Below, one piece after another: positions 1,997-19,834 of a DNA stretch of 64,000 nucleotides. Made by a program: the position numbers and the translations under genes. A model generated the notes under the pieces. That model had not been told where the DNA came from. It did no database searches and worked only from the letters and a program-made list of their open reading frames with translations. This DNA comes from a virus: IMG/VR virus record IMGVR_UViG_3300045988_044010, one strand, 5' to 3'. The stretch's first letter is position 1, and each line of letters begins with the position of its first letter.

Positions 1997-2560
1997 TTAA
2001 TTAGTTAATAATTGTTTTAATTTATCTCGTGCTCTGTTGAGCCGAGATTTAACCTGTGACTCTGTGAGTCCAAGTTGTTCAGATATCTGTTTGTAAGACA
2101 GATTCTGTATCGAACGTAGTTCAATAATATTCCTATACTTAAAGCGTAAGCGTGACAAGGCACTATCTAGCATCGAACGGGTTTCATCGAAGATATAATC
2201 CTCTTCAGGAGAGCAACCTGCAGTGTCACTCAACTGGAAACAACTGTCACTGTCGTCAATCCAATAGTTCGCGCTTTCTTTCTTTGTTCTACGAATATAA
2301 TCAATACTACTATTGATAGCTATAGTTTTTAGCCACATCTCAAATGATATATTTGTTACGTAACTATCTAACTTGCTAAAAGCTTTAACAAAAGTAATAG
2401 ATAATAAATCATCTGCTGCATCTTTATTATTAACAATACGATATATTGTTACATAAATAATCTGCTTATACTTTTCATAAAGCTTAGTAAAGGCAAGCTG
2501 GTTGCCTTCTTTTGCCTGTTTGATCAGTTCGGAAATCTGTTGTTTTTCTAAATCTGTCAT
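1997..2560 (-). CDS. ECF-type sigma-70 family RNA polymerase sigma factor
   Basis: Region-2-like DLLSITFVKAFSKLDSY..FEMWLKTIAINSSIDYIRR and region-4 HTH LSYKQISEQLGLTESQVKSRLNRARDKL. The 187-aa length is typical of group 4 sigmas. Confidence 0.85.
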   Translation of the reverse strand: MTDLEKQQISELIKQAKEGNQLAFTKLYEKYKQIIYVTIYRIVNNKDAADDLLSITFVKAFSKLDSYVTNISFEMWLKTIAINSSIDYIRRTKKESANYWIDDSDSCFQLSDTAGCSPEEDYIFDETRSMLDSALSRLRFKYRNIIELRSIQNLSYKQISEQLGLTESQVKSRLNRARDKLKQLLTN

Positions 2561-3654: not shown

Positions 3655-3923
3655 GTTTCTTCATAATTTTTAATTGCATCATCCAGTTTTCGCCATTTGT
3701 CCATGTCTAAATTTGTAGCTTCTACAAGATAATAGATAGAACATGTGCGTCTAAAGACTCCTCGAATATACATCATACCTTCACGATAATGATATTTATT
3801 CTTGTACTGTCTTGGAACATTAGCATGAAGTCTGTTAATTAATTCAGTCTTCATCTTCATCTCAGTTGAGGCTTTCTCCCATGATTCTGGTAGATTCTGC
3901 CTAATAAAGTTCATTAATCCCAT
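3645..3923 (-). CDS. hypothetical protein
   Basis: ORF track; 10-nt overlap with the downstream gene. Confidence 0.6.
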   Translation of the reverse strand: MGLMNFIRQNLPESWEKASTEMKMKTELINRLHANVPRQYKNKYHYREGMMYIRGVFRRTCSIYYLVEATNLDMDKWRKLDDAIKNYEETCR

Positions 3924-3960: not shown

Positions 3961-4165
3961 TGTAGCATTAGAGGGAGTCGAACCCTCTACAGCTCCTACG
4001 TCTGATCTAACCCGATATGCTCCAGCTTTTTACGACATTAGCTTAGCCGTTCGGTTTATCTCACGCTACTAAGCGTGTATAATCCATTACATAACTTGTA
4101 TTGCCAGTTATCTGCTCATTGACCTATTCTACTTCACATTGTCGCTGTCAAATTCATTCAGCCCC
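3961..4165 (-). ncRNA. tmRNA-like coding piece: 5' acceptor strand, D-loop analogue, candidate tag ORF and 3' T-arm-like hairpin
   Basis: 4165-4141 reads GGGGCTGAATGAATTTGACAGCGAC, a tmRNA 5'-end signature. Candidate tag frame 4105-4061 gives GNTSYVMDYTRLVA-TGA, with the stop inside the hairpin CACGCT-TAGT-AGCGTG. A T-arm-like hairpin lies at 3989-3969. Confidence 0.55.
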
Positions 4166-4265
4166 TTTTTGCAGGATTCTCACCTGCTATGAAGCTTTGC
4201 GGCTCTTAACCTAGGAGTGGTTTATACCCTTGCCAGGAGGAATCAAACCTCCATGCTTCTGACCG

Positions 4266-4319
4266 TGGAGCTGGAGGGGATCAAACCCTCGTCCATACGA
4301 CTGATTCATAGACCTAACA
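4266..4319 (-). ncRNA. tmRNA-like acceptor piece: T-arm, 3' acceptor strand and A73
   Basis: 4294-4266 reads GGAC-GAGGG-TTTGATC-CCCTC-CAGCTCC-A. CAGCTCC pairs with GGGGCTG (4165-4159), giving a G3:U70 wobble. It sits upstream of the 5' half on the transcribed strand. Confidence 0.6.
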
Positions 4320-4329
4320 GTCAATTTCT

Positions 4330-4720: not shown

Positions 4721-5043
4721 GAGTCAGTATTTCTACTGCTCAACACTACTCTAATTGCCGACTTGATATCATGAAAATGCTATTGCATAATATACTCGTC
4801 TGAGTATAGAATCTATACATCTATATTGCGCAATTTAAATATACATCTTCACGATCTTAGGCACATGATCAGTGGCACGTTGTCAAATGTCCTCTCTCCG
4901 GCATCGGTCAGTATTATTACTGCCTTACACTTGTTTGAGTCTACGTTAATTCGTAGAGTAGCTGCTTATTATCAGGGGCAAGCCCTCACCATACGCATTC
5001 ATACCACTACAGCTTCACTATATAGTCAGTATCACTACTGCTA
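4721..5043 (-). repeat. three copies of a conserved bulged-A hairpin at 4721-4741, 4906-4924 and 5023-5043
   Basis: Minus strand: GAG-CAGTA-GAAA-TACTG-A-CTC, GG-CAGTA-ATAA-TACTG-A-CC and TAG-CAGTA-GTGA-TACTG-A-CTA. The upper stem and bulge are identical; the lower stem covaries. Confidence 0.6.
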
Positions 5044-5800: not shown

Positions 5801-6111
5801 GCTGCTCTTTTCTTTGCAAGATACTCTTTACGAAGACGTCTCTTGCGTTGTTTGCATGATTCACGTCTGCCTTCTTTAATGAGCTGACGATACTCATAAG
5901 CCAGATACTTACGCATTCTTTCTTCGTTAAGAATACCTAAATATACAGCTTCTCTAGCTAAGTTTTCAGCTGCTTTCTTTTCTCTAGCTTTAACTGCGCT
6001 AGCTATACCTTGTTCTGTGAAACCTCTTCTTTGAAGTCTCTTGATCATTGCATTATATTTCATTTTGATATGAATTTTAAAGTTAAAGAACTGTTCTATG
6101 TATTTGTACAT
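5797..6111 (-). CDS. hypothetical basic protein
   Basis: ORF track; Arg/Lys-rich C-terminus. Confidence 0.6.
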   Translation of the reverse strand: MYKYIEQFFNFKIHIKMKYNAMIKRLQRRGFTEQGIASAVKAREKKAAENLAREAVYLGILNEERMRKYLAYEYRQLIKEGRRESCKQRKRRLRKEYLAKKRAA

Positions 6112-6263
6112 CTTATTTCATAGATATCCCTCATCCTTCTCTCACTTTATCTATAGATTTATAGATTGTCGTTGTATGACCGTTATGTTTGACACATATT
6201 AGGGCTCTGGAAGTATTTACAGTTCTTTTGGGTTGATTGGAATCCACCATACTAACAATTTAA

Positions 6264-7641: not shown

Positions 7642-8088
7642 TTTTTACATAATCTTAAATTGTTAGTTAATAATAATGACGACGCCTAGGGCACTCTAGG
7701 ATAATTTAATAAGACGTGTAAGTGCCTACACGAATCCTACATCAAACGACTTTTCTAGATTGTTAATAAAGAAACCATTTGTTAATAATAAATCTAAGTC
7801 TTTTTTAAGTGTTAAAAATTTATTAGATTAGCTCTCTGTTTAAACACTGAACATATGTTCCTTAGAAGTTGCTAATTCCTAAGTGTGTACCTGATTTTAA
7901 CGTCCGCACGATCGTAATATTTGCAATTATCAGTACTAATTAGAGCAATTGCCACCCTTCTTCTCCCGCTTAAAAATACTACTTACGCCCCACAGGTTTG
8001 TCATCTTCTGATGACGCCACATCTATTCTCACGAACTAATGTAGCTTGGCTGTAAATAAAGTTTAATCTTTACTTCCTTTTTGACTCA

Positions 8089-10410: not shown

Positions 10411-11179
10411 AAGCAGAGGTAGTATCATCGTATACTATAATCTTACATGTACTAGATTATAGTATAATATTATCTAAGATAATACTTTCATTGGTGACCT
10501 ATGCTCTGCTTTATAATACTTATTGTTCAGTTAGTATTATACTGTCAAGCACTACAGTTTCATGTAGTTGTACTATTCCCTTGCTTGCTTTGGTTGGTTG
10601 CCATTAAAAAGAGTTGCACCATCACAATGAACCTAATCATGATGCCTCTACCACGTGGATTATAATATAATATAGATATCGTCAGCTTGTGCATTGCAAT
10701 ATTCTATATCTAATATTATATTATTCTTTGACTCTGCTCCATACTAGTTTTTCTAGTACGTCCCTGACTTGTCACAGGTTAACTGTAGCATTAAAGAAAA
10801 GAGTTATAATAATATAGTATGTTAGCGTTACCTAACTATTTACAAGGGCATACCTTACCTCTATTATTATAACTGTACGTGGTCAAACTTATCCATCTCG
10901 GACTTGTAGTTATTTGCATTTCGAAGATTATCTACTTTGCGACAAATCTATTTTATATAATGAGTATTGTTATTCTATTTGAAACTACACTATCTTCACA
11001 GACTATGTAGTTATTACCTTTCTCTAGATTCAAGAAAGGAGGTCTTTCTACAACTATTATTATGGGTTCAAAAAGTTTGGTTAAAACTCTTAATCGCCAC
11101 CGTCTTTCACGGCTTGCGTCAGATTTCCCTACCAAGCTCTTACGAGTATTTATATAATGATAGCACTGATGATTAAGAG
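10411..11179. repeat. series of stem-closed modules and long AT-rich inverted repeats in an ORF-free region
   Basis: Inverted repeats: 10411-10418/10504-10511; perfect 13 bp at 10431-10443/10454-10466; palindrome 10468-10484; 18/19 bp at 10662-10679/10706-10724; 10802-10817/10861-10874; 11087-11095/11171-11179. Confidence 0.6.
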
Positions 11180-19758: not shown

Positions 19759-19834
19759 TGCCCTATGGTGTAATGGTCAAGCACAAGAGGCTCTAACCCT
19801 CTTGGTCTGGGTTCGAATCCTAGTGGGGCTACCA
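19759..19834 (+). tRNA. amber suppressor tRNA, anticodon CUA (reads UAG), encoded CCA
   Basis: Hand-folded cloverleaf. Acceptor 19759-65/19824-30; D-arm GTGT/GCAC; anticodon stem AGAGG/CCTCT with loop CT-CTA-AC (CTA at 19793-95). T-arm CTGGG-TTCGAAT-CCTAG; A73; CCA at 19832-34. Confidence 0.85.

What the first reader, a model, noticed from the sequence alone, without database searches (positions are those of the whole stretch)
3961..4319. Circularly permuted (two-piece) tmRNA-like gene in the phage early arm
**3' half.** On the minus strand, 4294-4266 reads GGAC-GAGGG-TTTGATC-CCCTC-CAGCTCC-A. This is nearly the canonical tmRNA 3' end (E. coli ssrA: GGACGGGGGUUCAACUCCCCCCAGCUCCACCA).

**5' half.** 4165-4141 reads GGGGCTG-AATGAATTTGACAGCGAC, matching the tmRNA 5' end (E. 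coli GGGGCUGAUUCUGGAUUCGACGGG; as I recall it, Bacteroidota-type ...UUUUGACAGCG).

**Acceptor stem.** The two 7-mers form a perfect stem with a G3:U70 wobble and an A73 discriminator, which is the AlaRS identity set.

**Permuted order.** The 3' half is transcribed about 100 nt before the 5' half. That layout is known from the permuted two-piece tmRNAs of some proteobacterial and cyanobacterial lineages. I am not aware of it in a phage or in Bacteroidota; this needs a literature and database check.

**Supporting pairings**
- GCGAC (4145-4141) with GTCGT (4301-4297), P2a-like.
- An 11-position helix (10 pairs, 3 of them G:U) between 4319-4309 and 4009-3999 could clamp the two pieces.

**Candidate tag frame.** 4105-4061, GGC AAT ACA AGT TAT GTA ATG GAT TAT ACA CGC TTA GTA GCG TGA, gives GNTSYVMDYTRLVA. 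It has a hydrophobic LVA end, its stop lies inside a 6-bp hairpin, and it terminates with TGA rather than the reassigned TAG.

**Inference.** Amber suppression late in infection should drive read-through and non-stop stalling on standard-code mRNAs. A phage-owned trans-translation RNA could manage that.
Basis: partly seen in the sequence, partly recalled or inferred. Interest (0 to 1): 0.9.

Follow-up and report, generated by a model that had tools for sequence, protein, structure and literature searches.

The report
Two-piece tmRNA gene in crAss-like phage
This gut phage carries a real, rearranged ("two-piece") copy of the bacterial ribosome-rescue RNA tmRNA, derived from its Bacteroidales hosts; relatives already have it auto-annotated in public records, so it is a solid but only moderately novel find.

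Summary
On the minus strand, 4325-4022 encodes a circularly permuted tmRNA. It consists of a 60-nt acceptor piece (4325-4266), a 100-nt spacer, and a 144-nt coding piece (4165-4022) carrying the tag frame GNTSYVMDYTRLVA (4105-4061). ARAGORN calls it a permuted tmRNA. Rfam's tmRNA_permuted model matches full-length at 41.2 bits (E=1e-6), just under its cut-off, and several homologs pass it. In 122 related loci both halves are always present. There are 11 fully compensated acceptor-stem variants, and G3:U70 and the A discriminator never change. Covariation on a 28-sequence alignment exceeded all 500 shuffles. The RNA is Bacteroidales-derived, as shown by its 5' signature, resume context and Gly-start tag, but host genes are one-piece. 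It is also miniaturised (about 205 nt, no room for PK1). The proposed link to amber suppression is not required: standard-code cr10_1 has the gene too. Two-piece tmRNAs are known in marine phages, and homologs in Suoliviridae RefSeq records are already labelled tmRNA, but I found no paper analysing them. Some relatives combine permutation with a T-loop group I intron.

The parts
4266..4325 (-). Acceptor piece (60 nt). It holds the 5' strands of three P2-type helices, the T-arm, the acceptor 3' strand and discriminator A4266. CCA is not encoded (the next bases are CGG).
   Evidence: ARAGORN; RF04321 alignment; covariation. CCA is never encoded in 104 loci.
4319..4325 (-). Outer clamp helix, 5' strand ATTGACT. 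It pairs with GGTCAAT at 4124-4118.
   Evidence: RNAalifold; intermolecular in the cofold; changed on both strands in L101 (TTAGC/GCTAA) and in cr10/cr50.
4308..4312 (-). Middle helix, 5' strand TCTAT. It pairs with GTAGA at 4132-4128.
   Evidence: 100% of cells paired; 4 of 5 pairs show double changes (TCTAT/GTAGA versus TCATT/AATGA).
4294..4301 (-). P2a-like helix, 5' side: GTC 4301-4299 pairs with GAC 4143-4141, and TG 4295-4294 pairs with CA 4147-4146.
Evidence: All 6 consensus pairs show double changes.
4274..4290 (-). T-arm: GAGGG, loop TTTGATC, CCCTC.
   Evidence: All 5 pairs show double changes; 11 stem variants in relatives.
4267..4273 (-). Acceptor stem, 3' strand CAGCTCC.
   Evidence: Pairs with 4165-4159. 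There are 11 compensated variants in 122 loci, and the U of G3:U70 is invariant.
4166..4265 (-). Intervening spacer (100 nt), presumably excised. It contains a T-arm-like hairpin at 4252-4236 and a second hairpin at 4187-4171.
   Evidence: Spacers range from 15 to 216 nt, with 55 distinct versions, and reach about 600 nt when they carry an endonuclease gene. This spacer type occurs only in the window, L105, cr10 and cr50.
4022..4165 (-). Coding piece (about 144 nt; the 3' end is inferred). It holds the acceptor 5' strand, the D-loop-like AAUGAAUUUGAC, the P2 3' strands, the tag frame, a P5-like hairpin and a conserved 3' motif.
   Evidence: ARAGORN; RF04321; alignments A1 and A2.
4159..4165 (-). 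Acceptor stem, 5' strand GGGGCTG (G1-G7).
4061..4105 (-). Tag reading frame: resume codon GGC, peptide GNTSYVMDYTRLVA, stop TGA.
   Evidence: ARAGORN. There are 22 related peptides, all ending in Ala; ORF lengths differ by multiples of 3; TAG is never the stop. The resume context is host-like.
4052..4086 (-). Two-tier P5-like hairpin enclosing the last codons and the stop codon.
   Evidence: The stop is paired in 35 of 43 variants against 41% of shuffles. The outer stem covaries between the coding strand and the post-stop strand.
4022..4051 (-). Conserved 3' motif AACGGCTAAGCTAATGTCGTAAAAAGCTGG; possibly a small H-type pseudoknot.
   Evidence: Invariant in more than 120 loci, which were selected by this motif. 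The stem is predicted by RNAalifold. There is one double change in the second stem, in cr4_1. Weak evidence.
3963..4021 (-). Reduced tRNA-like element (T-arm 3987-3971, 5 of 7 acceptor pairs) abutting the coding piece. It is the likely 3' processing signal.
   Evidence: It sits at a fixed offset of 9 nt after the motif. It is tRNA-sized in 55 relatives, with covarying acceptor stems, and is called a tRNA by ARAGORN or Rfam in several.

Best explanation
The locus is a functional, circularly permuted tmRNA (ssrA) gene of a Suoliviridae (crAss-like) phage. It derives from the one-piece tmRNA of Bacteroidales hosts.

Proposed mechanism:
1. It is transcribed inside the minus-strand operon, lying 5 nt after the upstream ORF's stop and 40 nt before the next ATG.
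2. Host tRNA-processing enzymes cut it into a 60-nt acceptor piece and a coding piece of about 144 nt. RNase P would act at G4165 and at the 5' end of the flanking tRNA-like element. A 3' trimming activity would act at A4266, followed by CCA addition.
3. The two pieces stay together through the 7-bp acceptor stem plus about 18 bp of P2-type helices, forming a tRNA-Ala-like domain.
4. Host AlaRS charges it via G3:U70 and A73. Host SmpB and EF-Tu deliver it to stalled ribosomes.
5. Translation resumes at GGC and appends (A)GNTSYVMDYTRLVA, ending at UGA. The hydrophobic, Ala-terminated tail marks the product for host proteases.

What is shown: the RNA structure (by covariation), the permuted order, the Bacteroidales ancestry and the conservation of the tag frame. 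What is inferred: processing, charging, SmpB use, tagging and proteolysis.

The benefit to the phage is most likely extra or re-specified ribosome-rescue capacity during infection. It is not specifically tied to TAG recoding.
For: - **Detection.** ARAGORN calls a permuted tmRNA and has a negligible null rate. RF04321 matches full-length, 1-213, at 41.2 bits and E=1e-6. Homologs score 60.3, 50.9, 50.3 and 49.6 bits against a cut-off of 47.
- **Completeness in relatives.** All 122 full-length related loci keep both halves, with 11 compensated acceptor variants, invariant G3:U70 and discriminator A, and 11 T-stem variants.
- **Covariation.** RNAalifold recovers the tRNA-like domain and P2 helices without any prior. 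The pair-count test gives 95.6% paired against 78.6% for shuffles and 38-51% for slid partners; 20 of 30 pairs show double changes; the covariation score is 0.426 against 0.135, reached by 0 of 500 shuffles.
- **Tag frame.** It is conserved as a peptide family with in-frame indels and an invariant C-terminal Ala. A covarying hairpin covers the stop codon.
- **Host ancestry.** The 5' signature is found almost only in Bacteroidales. All 93 host genes are one-piece, and 89 of 93 host tags start with Gly. The resume context and the 3' end are alike.
- **Spacer.** It is hypervariable, as expected for an excised segment.
- **No phage SmpB.** None is found in the window, in cr10_1, in cr4_1 or in any Crassvirales record.
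Against: - The window's own Rfam score is below the curated cut-off (41.2 against 47).
- There is no room for PK1 (12-13 nt between P2 and the resume codon), and PK2-4 are absent, so the architecture is unusually reduced.
- The synonymous excess in the tag is modest (30-34% of codon differences), and frame +2 is also open in 33 of 42 variants. Part of the tag's conservation is explained by the overlapping hairpin.
- Thermodynamic cofolding gives only a modest duplex gain (-13.9 against -8.6 +/- 3.3 kcal/mol).
- There is no expression, processing or tagging data.
- The alignment representatives were chosen by a parser that required perfect acceptor and T-stem pairing. This inflates the statistics for those two helices, although the other three helices were not selected on.
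Confidence: 0.82

Rival explanations
1. The RNA is a tRNA-like decoy or inhibitor. It binds host SmpB, AlaRS or ribosomes and blocks or competes with host trans-translation, and its reading frame is not used for tagging.
For: - A CDS-less phage tmRNA (mycobacteriophage DS6A) inhibits endogenous tmRNA (PMC11915505).
- tmRNA rescue can obstruct phage propagation when UAG is mishandled (PMC6207430).
- The RNA lacks PK1-4.
- The synonymous excess in the tag is modest.
Against: - The tag frame is kept open, with in-frame indels only, an invariant C-terminal Ala, a hydrophobic end, a host-like resume context and a helix-5-like hairpin over the stop codon.
- These features would be unnecessary in a pure decoy.
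Confidence: 0.08
2. This is the reader's rationale: the tmRNA exists specifically to cope with read-through and non-stop stalling caused by amber (TAG) suppression in a recoded phage.
For: - The window is TAG-recoded and has a tRNA(CTA).
- The tag never ends in TAG, in 0 of 104 loci.
- UAG conflicts do trigger tmRNA rescue experimentally (PMC6207430).
- TAG-recoded Lak megaphages of Prevotella encode SmpB.
Against: - cr10_1 has the gene but uses the standard code and has no suppressor tRNA.
- The gene is conserved across three Suoliviridae subfamilies regardless of code.
- The absence of TAG stops is weak evidence on its own, because the loci are related.
Confidence: 0.12
3. It is a non-functional relic: a captured fragment of the host ssrA gene (for example an attP-like 3' end next to an unrelated 5'-like fragment), or a decaying pseudogene.
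For: - The 3' 36 nt are 83-89% identical to Bacteroidales tmRNA 3' ends.
- Many temperate phages carry ssrA 3' fragments as att sites (established knowledge; mentioned in PMC9004378).
Against: - Eleven compensated acceptor variants, plus compensated T-arm and P2 helices, show selection on RNA pairing between the two halves.
- The gene is retained in 122 of 122 loci across three subfamilies.
- No integrase is found among the 8 adjacent ORFs scanned.
Confidence: 0.02
4. It is a chance resemblance or an ARAGORN false positive.
For: The Rfam gathering-threshold scan reported no tmRNA in the window.
Against: - ARAGORN made 1 tmRNA call (0 permuted) in 9.6 Mb of shuffled sequence.
- RF04321 matches at E=1e-6.
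- Homologs pass the gathering score.
- The covariation is strong.
Confidence: 0.005

Closest known systems
tmRNA genes annotated in RefSeq/GenBank Suoliviridae genomes (cr52_1, cr60_1, cr115_1, cr114_1, cr125_1, cr10_1, cr50_1)
   Same: They are direct homologs at the same genomic position. ARAGORN gives a permuted form and related tags such as GNTSYVTDYTRLVA, GNTSYVMDYTRLAA and GNFYVTDYTRIAA.
   Different: The window's phage is a different genome: the early arm has at most 19% coverage at about 80% identity to any record. The records do not say the gene is permuted, and I found no paper that analyses them. cr113_1, cr56_1, cr53_1 and cr4_1 have the gene but no annotation.
Two-piece (permuted) tmRNAs of Alphaproteobacteria, some Betaproteobacteria and Cyanobacteria (Rfam RF01849-51, merged in RF04321)
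   Same: The gene order is the same: acceptor piece, spacer, coding piece. The tRNA-like domain is assembled from two RNAs and held by P2, and there is a tag frame. RF04321 aligns full-length.
   Different: The sequence signatures are Bacteroidales-type, not alpha, beta or cyano: beta_tmRNA scores only 24.5 bits against a cut-off of 84, and the 5' signature, Gly resume codon and resume context match the host phylum. There is no PK1. The RNA is much smaller, about 205 nt.
Two-piece tmRNAs of marine phages (OM43 phage Melnitz, pelagimyophages, cyanophages; PMC9004378)
   Same: They are phage-encoded permuted ssrA genes in an early region, without a phage smpB reported nearby.
   Different: In those phages the form matches the lineage of the host or ancestral host (alpha or cyano). 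Here the host phylum uses the one-piece form, so the permutation is probably phage-specific. There is no glutamine riboswitch (none).
Standard one-piece tmRNA of Bacteroidales (about 398 nt, tag GENNYALAA)
   Same: The 5' end matches GGGGYTGANNNRNTTTGACAGCG. The 3' 36 nt are 83-89% identical. The resume context is ...TAACT/TAAAT GGC. The tags start with Gly and some read GN(N/T).Y.
   Different: The host gene is one-piece, has the pseudoknot-containing body and encodes a 9-10 aa tag. The phage gene is permuted, half the size and encodes a 13-15 aa tag.
tmRNA 'intron form' (group I intron in the T-loop; PMC11915505)
   Same: Relatives (L012, L033, L050, cr4_1) have RF00028-positive introns at T-loop positions 3 and 8. 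In bacteria these two sites are reported only from Bacteroidota.
   Different: The window itself has no intron. In the relatives the intron sits in a permuted gene and carries an opposite-strand endonuclease ORF. That combination is not in the paper's table of forms.

Membership tests
tmRNA (SsrA), permuted / two-piece form | A tRNA-like domain: a 7-bp acceptor stem formed by the RNA's 5' and 3' terminal strands, plus a T-arm. | tested here: met
   4165-4159 pairs with 4273-4267, and the T-arm is at 4290-4274. There are 11 compensated acceptor variants and 11 T-stem variants in 122 loci.
tmRNA (SsrA), permuted / two-piece form | Alanine identity elements: the G3:U70 wobble and an A discriminator. 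| tested here: met
   G4163:U4269 and A4266. The wobble is invariant in 28 of 28 representatives and in all parsed loci. Charging itself was not tested.
tmRNA (SsrA), permuted / two-piece form | Permuted gene order: the 3' (acceptor) segment lies upstream of the 5' (coding) segment, separated by an intervening sequence. | tested here: met
   The acceptor piece is 4325-4266, the spacer 4265-4166 and the coding piece 4165-4022. ARAGORN reports 'tmRNA*'. The spacer is hypervariable in relatives.
tmRNA (SsrA), permuted / two-piece form | A P2-type helix joining the tRNA-like domain to the rest and holding the two pieces together. | tested here: met
   Three helices (cols 8-14/116-124, 21-25/108-112 and 32-39/91-97 of A2). 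Of their 18 pairs, 11 show double changes, and 88-100% of cells are paired.
tmRNA (SsrA), permuted / two-piece form | An internal tag reading frame with a resume codon and no start codon, ending in a hydrophobic/Ala C-terminus and a stop codon within a hairpin. | tested here: met
   4105-4061. There are 22 related peptides, all ending in Ala, with in-frame indels only, and a covarying hairpin over the stop. The synonymous excess is only modest.
tmRNA (SsrA), permuted / two-piece form | Pseudoknot PK1 between P2 and the resume codon (typical of most tmRNAs, including known two-piece forms). | tested here: not met
   Only 12-13 nt separate the end of P2 from the resume codon in all 102 loci measured. 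A 6-bp hairpin (ATAACU/AGUUAU) spans the resume codon instead. PK1 is not universally required, so this marks a variant rather than an exclusion (my own knowledge).
tmRNA (SsrA), permuted / two-piece form | The Rfam RF04321 covariance-model score reaches the curated gathering threshold (47 bits). | tested here: not met
   The window scores 41.2 bits, E=1e-6, full-length match. Homologs score 60.3, 50.9, 50.3 and 49.6 bits and pass; others score 37.5-46.3. The model was built only from alpha, beta and cyano sequences.
tmRNA (SsrA), permuted / two-piece form | Processing into two stable RNAs, alanylation, SmpB binding and trans-translation activity. | not testable with these tools
   No transcript or biochemical data are available. 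There is no phage SmpB, so host SmpB would be needed.
Alpha-, beta- or cyanobacterial permuted tmRNA lineages (RF01849, RF01850, RF01851) | Lineage-specific sequence and structure scoring above the family thresholds. | tested here: not met
   The best match is beta_tmRNA at 24.5 bits against a cut-off of 84, covering the tRNA-like domain only. The sequence signatures match Bacteroidales standard tmRNA instead.
tmRNA intron form | A group I intron interrupting the T-loop. | tested here: not met
   The window's T-arm is uninterrupted, and the window has no RF00028 hit. The feature is met in the relatives L012, L033 and L050 and probably in cr4_1.

The most novel reading that the evidence does not exclude
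Suoliviridae phages carry a fourth, independently permuted lineage of two-piece tmRNA. It arose from the one-piece Bacteroidales gene, probably within the phage lineage. It has been miniaturised to about 205 nt with no PK1-PK4. It is excised from an mRNA-like operon transcript by flanking tRNA-like 'punctuation'. It tolerates endonuclease genes in its spacer and group I introns in its T-loop, giving a 'permuted plus intron' gene form not listed in the current tmRNA database. The phage would use it, with host SmpB and AlaRS, to re-specify ribosome rescue by adding a longer, different tag during infection.
Probability: 0.55. Interest if true: 0.6.

Novelty: new member of a known kind. Interest (0 to 1): 0.45.

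Why it matters
Three permuted tmRNA lineages are recognised in bacteria, and the two-piece tmRNAs found in marine phages match them. An independent phage-borne lineage derived from a one-piece host gene would give a natural experiment on how tmRNA tolerates permutation, loss of all pseudoknots and intron invasion. It would also define a near-minimal tag-encoding tmRNA.

For gut-phage biology, it shows that a whole family of abundant crAss-like phages invests in ribosome rescue while depending on host SmpB. Whether they do so to boost, redirect or compete with host trans-translation is testable.

There is also a practical point. Several RefSeq crAss genomes (cr113_1, cr56_1, cr53_1, cr4_1) lack the annotation because long spacers or introns defeat ARAGORN. 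In addition, some of the 48 'permuted' tmRNAs assigned to Bacteroidota genomes in the tmRNA database may be mis-binned phage contigs.

Tried and rejected
- **Rfam at gathering thresholds** found no tmRNA in the window. Only the permissive scan revealed RF04321 at 41.2 bits.
- **Single-sequence folding** of the spacer, the 3' element and the coding piece gave weak z-scores (-0.6 to -1.3) and was uninformative. Cofolding the two pieces gave only a modest gain over shuffles.
- **My first two parsers** mis-framed or missed acceptor variants. Apparent 'disrupted' loci turned out to be long-spacer genes, intron-containing genes or further compensated variants.
- **Frame openness** does not discriminate, since frame +2 is open in 33 of 42 variants. 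The synonymous/non-synonymous ratio is only mildly informative.
- **A column-based count of the stop-codon hairpin** was abandoned because MAFFT does not keep the post-stop strand in register. I replaced it with a swap test.
- **A phage SmpB** was sought and not found.
- **The 'ribosomal protein-like' neighbour** annotated in relatives has no Pfam support in the window.
- **The attP-relic and decoy readings** were considered and are disfavoured (see the rival explanations).
- **Seven literature searches** found no analysis of crAss-like tmRNAs.
Full report

Yes. Reading the minus strand confirms every string and coordinate in the finding:
- GGAC-GAGGG-TTTGATC-CCCTC-CAGCTCC-A at 4294-4266.
- GGGGCTG-AATGAATTTGACAGCGAC at 4165-4141.
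- A perfect 7-bp acceptor stem with G:U at position 3:70 and an A discriminator.
- The frame GGC...TGA at 4105-4061.

ARAGORN made one tmRNA call and no permuted call in 9.6 Mb of shuffled window.

Rfam at gathering thresholds reports no tmRNA. A permissive scan finds RF04321 "tmRNA_permuted" matched over its full length (1-213) at 4061-4325, with 41.2 bits against a cut-off of 47 and E=1e-6, plus a partial beta_tmRNA match. RF04321 was built only from alpha-, beta- and cyanobacterial sequences (PMC11915505), so a near-threshold score for a different lineage is unsurprising.

**2. Relatives**

blastn against the annotated phage collection finds 18 records, all human-gut crAss-like phages. Every named one fetched belongs to Suoliviridae (Loutivirinae, Uncouvirinae or Boorivirinae). 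Several already carry a "transfer-messenger RNA, SsrA" feature at the homologous place. On these loci ARAGORN again gives permuted genes with related tags: GNTSYVTDYTRLVA, GNTSYVMDYTRLAA, GNTSYIMNYSRIAA, GNFYVTDYTRIAA, GNNFVTDYTQLAVA and GNNFVTDYTAIGA. Four homologs pass the RF04321 threshold, at 60.3, 50.9, 50.3 and 49.6 bits.

The window itself is not one of these genomes. Its first 20 kb match the best record over only 19%, at about 80% identity.

**3. Covariation**

Of the 122 loci with enough flanking sequence:
- 104 have the simple permuted layout.
- 2 are further compensated variants.
- 7 have intact pieces separated by a spacer of about 600 nt that holds an endonuclease ORF on the other strand.
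- 9 have the acceptor piece split in the T-arm.

None has a broken acceptor stem. Eleven acceptor variants occur: GGGGCAT/ATGCTCC, GGGGCTG/CAGCTCC, GGGGCTA/TAGCTCC, GGGGGTA/TACCTCC, GGGTGTG/CACATCC, GGGGTAT/ATACTCC, GGGGATG/CATCTCC, GGGGGTG/CACCTCC, GGGGTTG/CAACTCC, GGGCGTG/CACGTCC and GGGCCTA/TAGGTCC. All keep G3:U70 and discriminator A. There are eleven T-stem variants.

I aligned 28 representatives (under 93% identity, spacer spliced out) by sequence only. On that alignment RNAalifold recovers the acceptor stem, the T-arm, a two-part P2a-like helix and two further helices clamping the pieces.

The explicit pair count gives:

| Measure | Observed | Control |
|---|---|---|
| Cells paired | 95.6% | 78.6% shuffled; 38-51% with partners slid |
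| Pairs with changes on both sides | 20 of 30 | 11.7 shuffled |
| Covariation score | 0.426 | 0.135 shuffled; 0 of 500 shuffles reach it |

One caveat applies. The representatives came from a parser that required perfect acceptor and T-stem pairing, so those two helices are partly selected for. The three P2 helices were not.

**4. Anatomy in the window (minus strand)**

- The upstream ORF stops at 4332-4330.
- The acceptor piece is 4325-4266. It contains the outer helix ATTGACT (4325-4319), the middle helix TCTAT (4312-4308), the P2a strand (4301-4294), the T-arm (4290-4274), the acceptor 3' strand (4273-4267) and A4266.
- CCA is not encoded, here or in any of 104 loci.
- The spacer is 4265-4166.
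- The coding piece starts at G4165. Its P2 partner strands lie at 4147-4141, 4132-4128 and 4124-4118.
- Only 12 nt separate the end of P2 from the resume codon GGC (4105). This distance is 12-13 nt in every locus, which leaves no room for PK1.
- A two-tier hairpin (4086-4052) encloses the last codons and the UGA stop.
- A conserved motif follows at 4051-4022.
- A 59-nt tRNA-like element (4021-3963) abuts the coding piece, and the next ORF starts at 3923.

The two mature pieces would total about 205 nt, against a median of 398 nt for host tmRNAs.

**5. The tag frame**

Across 104 loci there are 22 peptides fitting (G/D)(N/K)..(F/Y)(V/I)(T/M)(D/N)Y(T/S).(I/L/V)(A/V/T/S/G)A. All end in Ala, and ORF lengths differ by multiples of three. 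The stops are TGA in 66 and TAA in 38, and never TAG (with ARAGORN correcting the one mis-parsed case).

The synonymous share of codon differences is only 30-34%, and frame +2 is often open too, so openness alone proves little. Part of the nucleotide conservation comes from the overlapping hairpin. The stop codon is paired in 35 of 43 variants, against 41% with shuffled flanks. The outer stem covaries between coding and non-coding strands: GGAC/GTCC in 3 of 3, GAAC/GTTC in 4 of 4, AGAT/ATCT in 3 of 4, and the GAC/GTC core in 15 of 15, with no wrong-variant matches.

**6. Origin**

The 5' signature GGGGYTGANNNRNTTTGACAGCG retrieves almost only Bacteroidales genomes. ARAGORN finds 93 tmRNAs in those loci. 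All are one-piece, and 89 have tags that start with Gly (GENNYALAA, GNNNYALAA, GNTNYALAA and similar).

Regions not used for selection also agree:
- The 36-nt 3' end is 83% (median) to 89% identical to host genes.
- The resume context in hosts...TTAACT/TTTAAAT GGC GAA, resembles the phage's ...GATAACT/TTTAAAT GGC AAT.

The tmRNA database counts 24,380 standard genes against 48 permuted genes in 29,415 Bacteroidota genomes. The phage gene is therefore a Bacteroidales-type tmRNA that has been permuted and shrunk, most simply within the phage lineage.

**7. Spacer and flanks**

Spacers are hypervariable: 15-216 nt in 55 versions, many just A/T-rich 15-18-mers. Some hold a tRNA-His (cr114_1) or an endonuclease gene. 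This fits an excised, dispensable segment.

The window's spacer type occurs only in the window, L105, cr10 and cr50. Its T-arm-like hairpin (4252-4236) shows one compensatory change in cr10. I cannot explain it.

The 3' flanking element begins at a fixed offset. It is tRNA-sized in 55 relatives, with covarying acceptor stems, and is called a tRNA by ARAGORN or Rfam in several. The window has a reduced copy. Because the gene sits between ORFs on the same strand, I infer that these tRNA-like elements recruit RNase P and 3' processing enzymes to excise the pieces.

**8.

*The clamp helix.* The pairing of 4319-4309 with 4009-3999 is no better than chance. It also uses nucleotides that belong to two covarying helices.

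*The amber-suppression rationale.* The context is right. Reading TAG as sense fuses +-strand frames from about 20 kb onward into ORFs of 1820, 1615 and 1392 codons, against a maximum of 699 under the standard code, and a tRNA(CTA) lies at 19759-19834. It is also experimentally established that UAG conflicts trigger tmRNA rescue, which can block phage (PMC6207430).

However, cr10_1 uses the standard code and has no suppressor tRNA, yet it has the gene. TAG-recoded cr4_1 has it too, in intron-split form. So the gene is a family trait rather than an adaptation tied to recoding.

*SmpB.* No SmpB is encoded in the window, in cr10_1, in cr4_1, in 1.1 Mb of related loci or in any Crassvirales record. 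The query proved identical to annotated E. coli smpB. Host SmpB would therefore be needed.

**9. Novelty**

Two-piece tmRNAs are known from three bacterial lineages, from mitochondria and from marine phages (PMC9004378; PMC11915505). The Suoliviridae homologs are already labelled tmRNA in public records. Seven full-text searches found no paper that analyses them or notes that they are permuted (checked).

I therefore rate the window's gene a new member of a known kind, with three variant features worth recording: a Bacteroidales-derived independent permutation, the loss of PK1, and tRNA-like punctuation.

The most novel item lies in relatives, not in the window. Group I introns (RF00028 at 96.2, 85.1 and 76.8 bits) carrying opposite-strand endonuclease ORFs interrupt the T-arm of the permuted gene. 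They sit at T-loop positions 3 and 8, the two sites reported only from Bacteroidota, and the database's table of forms has no "permuted plus intron" class.

**10. Verdict**

The finding is real and correctly interpreted at its core. It still merits moderate interest as a probably independent, miniaturised, phage-borne two-piece tmRNA lineage.

Noticed in passing
L012 3568-3827 (-), L033 887-1142 (+), L050 4117-4373 (+); cr4_1 NC_055893.1 about 67.7-69.0 kb: In some relatives the acceptor piece of the permuted tmRNA gene is also split by a group I intron (RF00028 at 96.2, 85.1 and 76.8 bits). The intron carries an endonuclease ORF of 164-200 aa on the opposite strand and sits at T-loop positions 3 or 8. 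The T-stem halves remain complementary. This 'permuted plus intron' form is not in the tmRNA database's list of forms.
   Followed up: partly
L003 (cr113_1), L005 (cr56_1), L013, L029, L040, L049, L080, L123: Both tmRNA pieces are intact, but the spacer is about 600 nt and holds a 191-aa endonuclease ORF on the other strand. ARAGORN misses these genes, and RefSeq has no tmRNA feature for cr113_1 or cr56_1. The gene is likewise unannotated in cr53_1 and cr4_1.
   Followed up: partly
window 4853-4957, 6084-6240, 7889-8015, 10514-10724 (all minus strand): The same arm holds a dense cluster of Rfam RNAs: RAGATH-20, RAGATH-9, a Hatchet ribozyme and RAGATH-7. In cr115_1 and cr125_1, RAGATH-9 ends 16-19 nt before the tmRNA acceptor piece, which hints at a role in transcript processing.
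   Followed up: no
window 19759-19834 (+) and + strand from about 20 kb to 64 kb: A suppressor-type tRNA with anticodon CTA (ARAGORN labels it tRNA-Pyl) sits at the head of the + strand arm. The ORFs in that arm only become long when TAG is read as sense (1820, 1615 and 1392 codons, against a maximum of 699).
   Followed up: partly
window 4166-4265 (-): The spacer contains a T-arm-like hairpin (GGAGG-TTTGATT-CCTCC, 4252-4236) that shows a compensatory G:C to A:U change in cr10, and a second 5-bp/7-nt hairpin (4187-4171). This spacer type is shared only with L105, cr10 and cr50, which include a different subfamily. That suggests a horizontally moved or functional element of unknown nature.
   Followed up: partly
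window 3963-4021 (-); homologous position in relatives: A tRNA or tRNA-like element always abuts the coding piece at a fixed offset. It is tRNA-sized in 55 loci, and ARAGORN types some as Ile-GAT or Leu-TAA. Many have odd anticodon loops that ARAGORN cannot type. It is reduced to 43-59 nt in others, including the window.
   Followed up: partly
related loci such as L015, L083, L024, L025: Some relatives have non-canonical T-loops in the tmRNA acceptor piece: GGCAGTA or GGCAGTG in 10 loci, an 8-nt TATCGTAT in 8 loci and a 6-nt TTCGCC in 9 loci. All have compensated stems. The usual T-loop/D-loop contacts would be altered.
   Followed up: no
L024, L032, L084, L119 and similar: One sub-group uses the resume codon GAC, giving tags that start with Asp (DKSFVTDYTRIAA) instead of the Gly start typical of the host phylum.
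   Followed up: no
phage collection: Prevotella Lak megaphages MK250015-29; huge phages LR745206 and LR756501-4: SmpB homologs are encoded by Lak megaphages (host listed as Prevotella sp.) and other huge phages, but by no Crassvirales record. Other large phages in the collection thus carry the protein partner, whereas Suoliviridae carry the RNA.
   Followed up: no
window 1997-2560 (-): An ECF-type sigma factor (Sigma70_r2, Sigma70_r4_2 and Sigma70_ECF domains) lies about 1.5 kb downstream of the tmRNA on the same strand. The homologous gene is annotated 'RNA polymerase sigma-W factor' in relatives.
   Followed up: no
window 4022-4051 (-); cr4_1: The conserved motif after the tag frame can form a small H-type pseudoknot, with stems ACGGC/GUCGU and AGCU/AGCU. 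cr4_1 shows a U:A to C:G double change in the second stem. There is too little variation in my sample to test it.
   Followed up: partly
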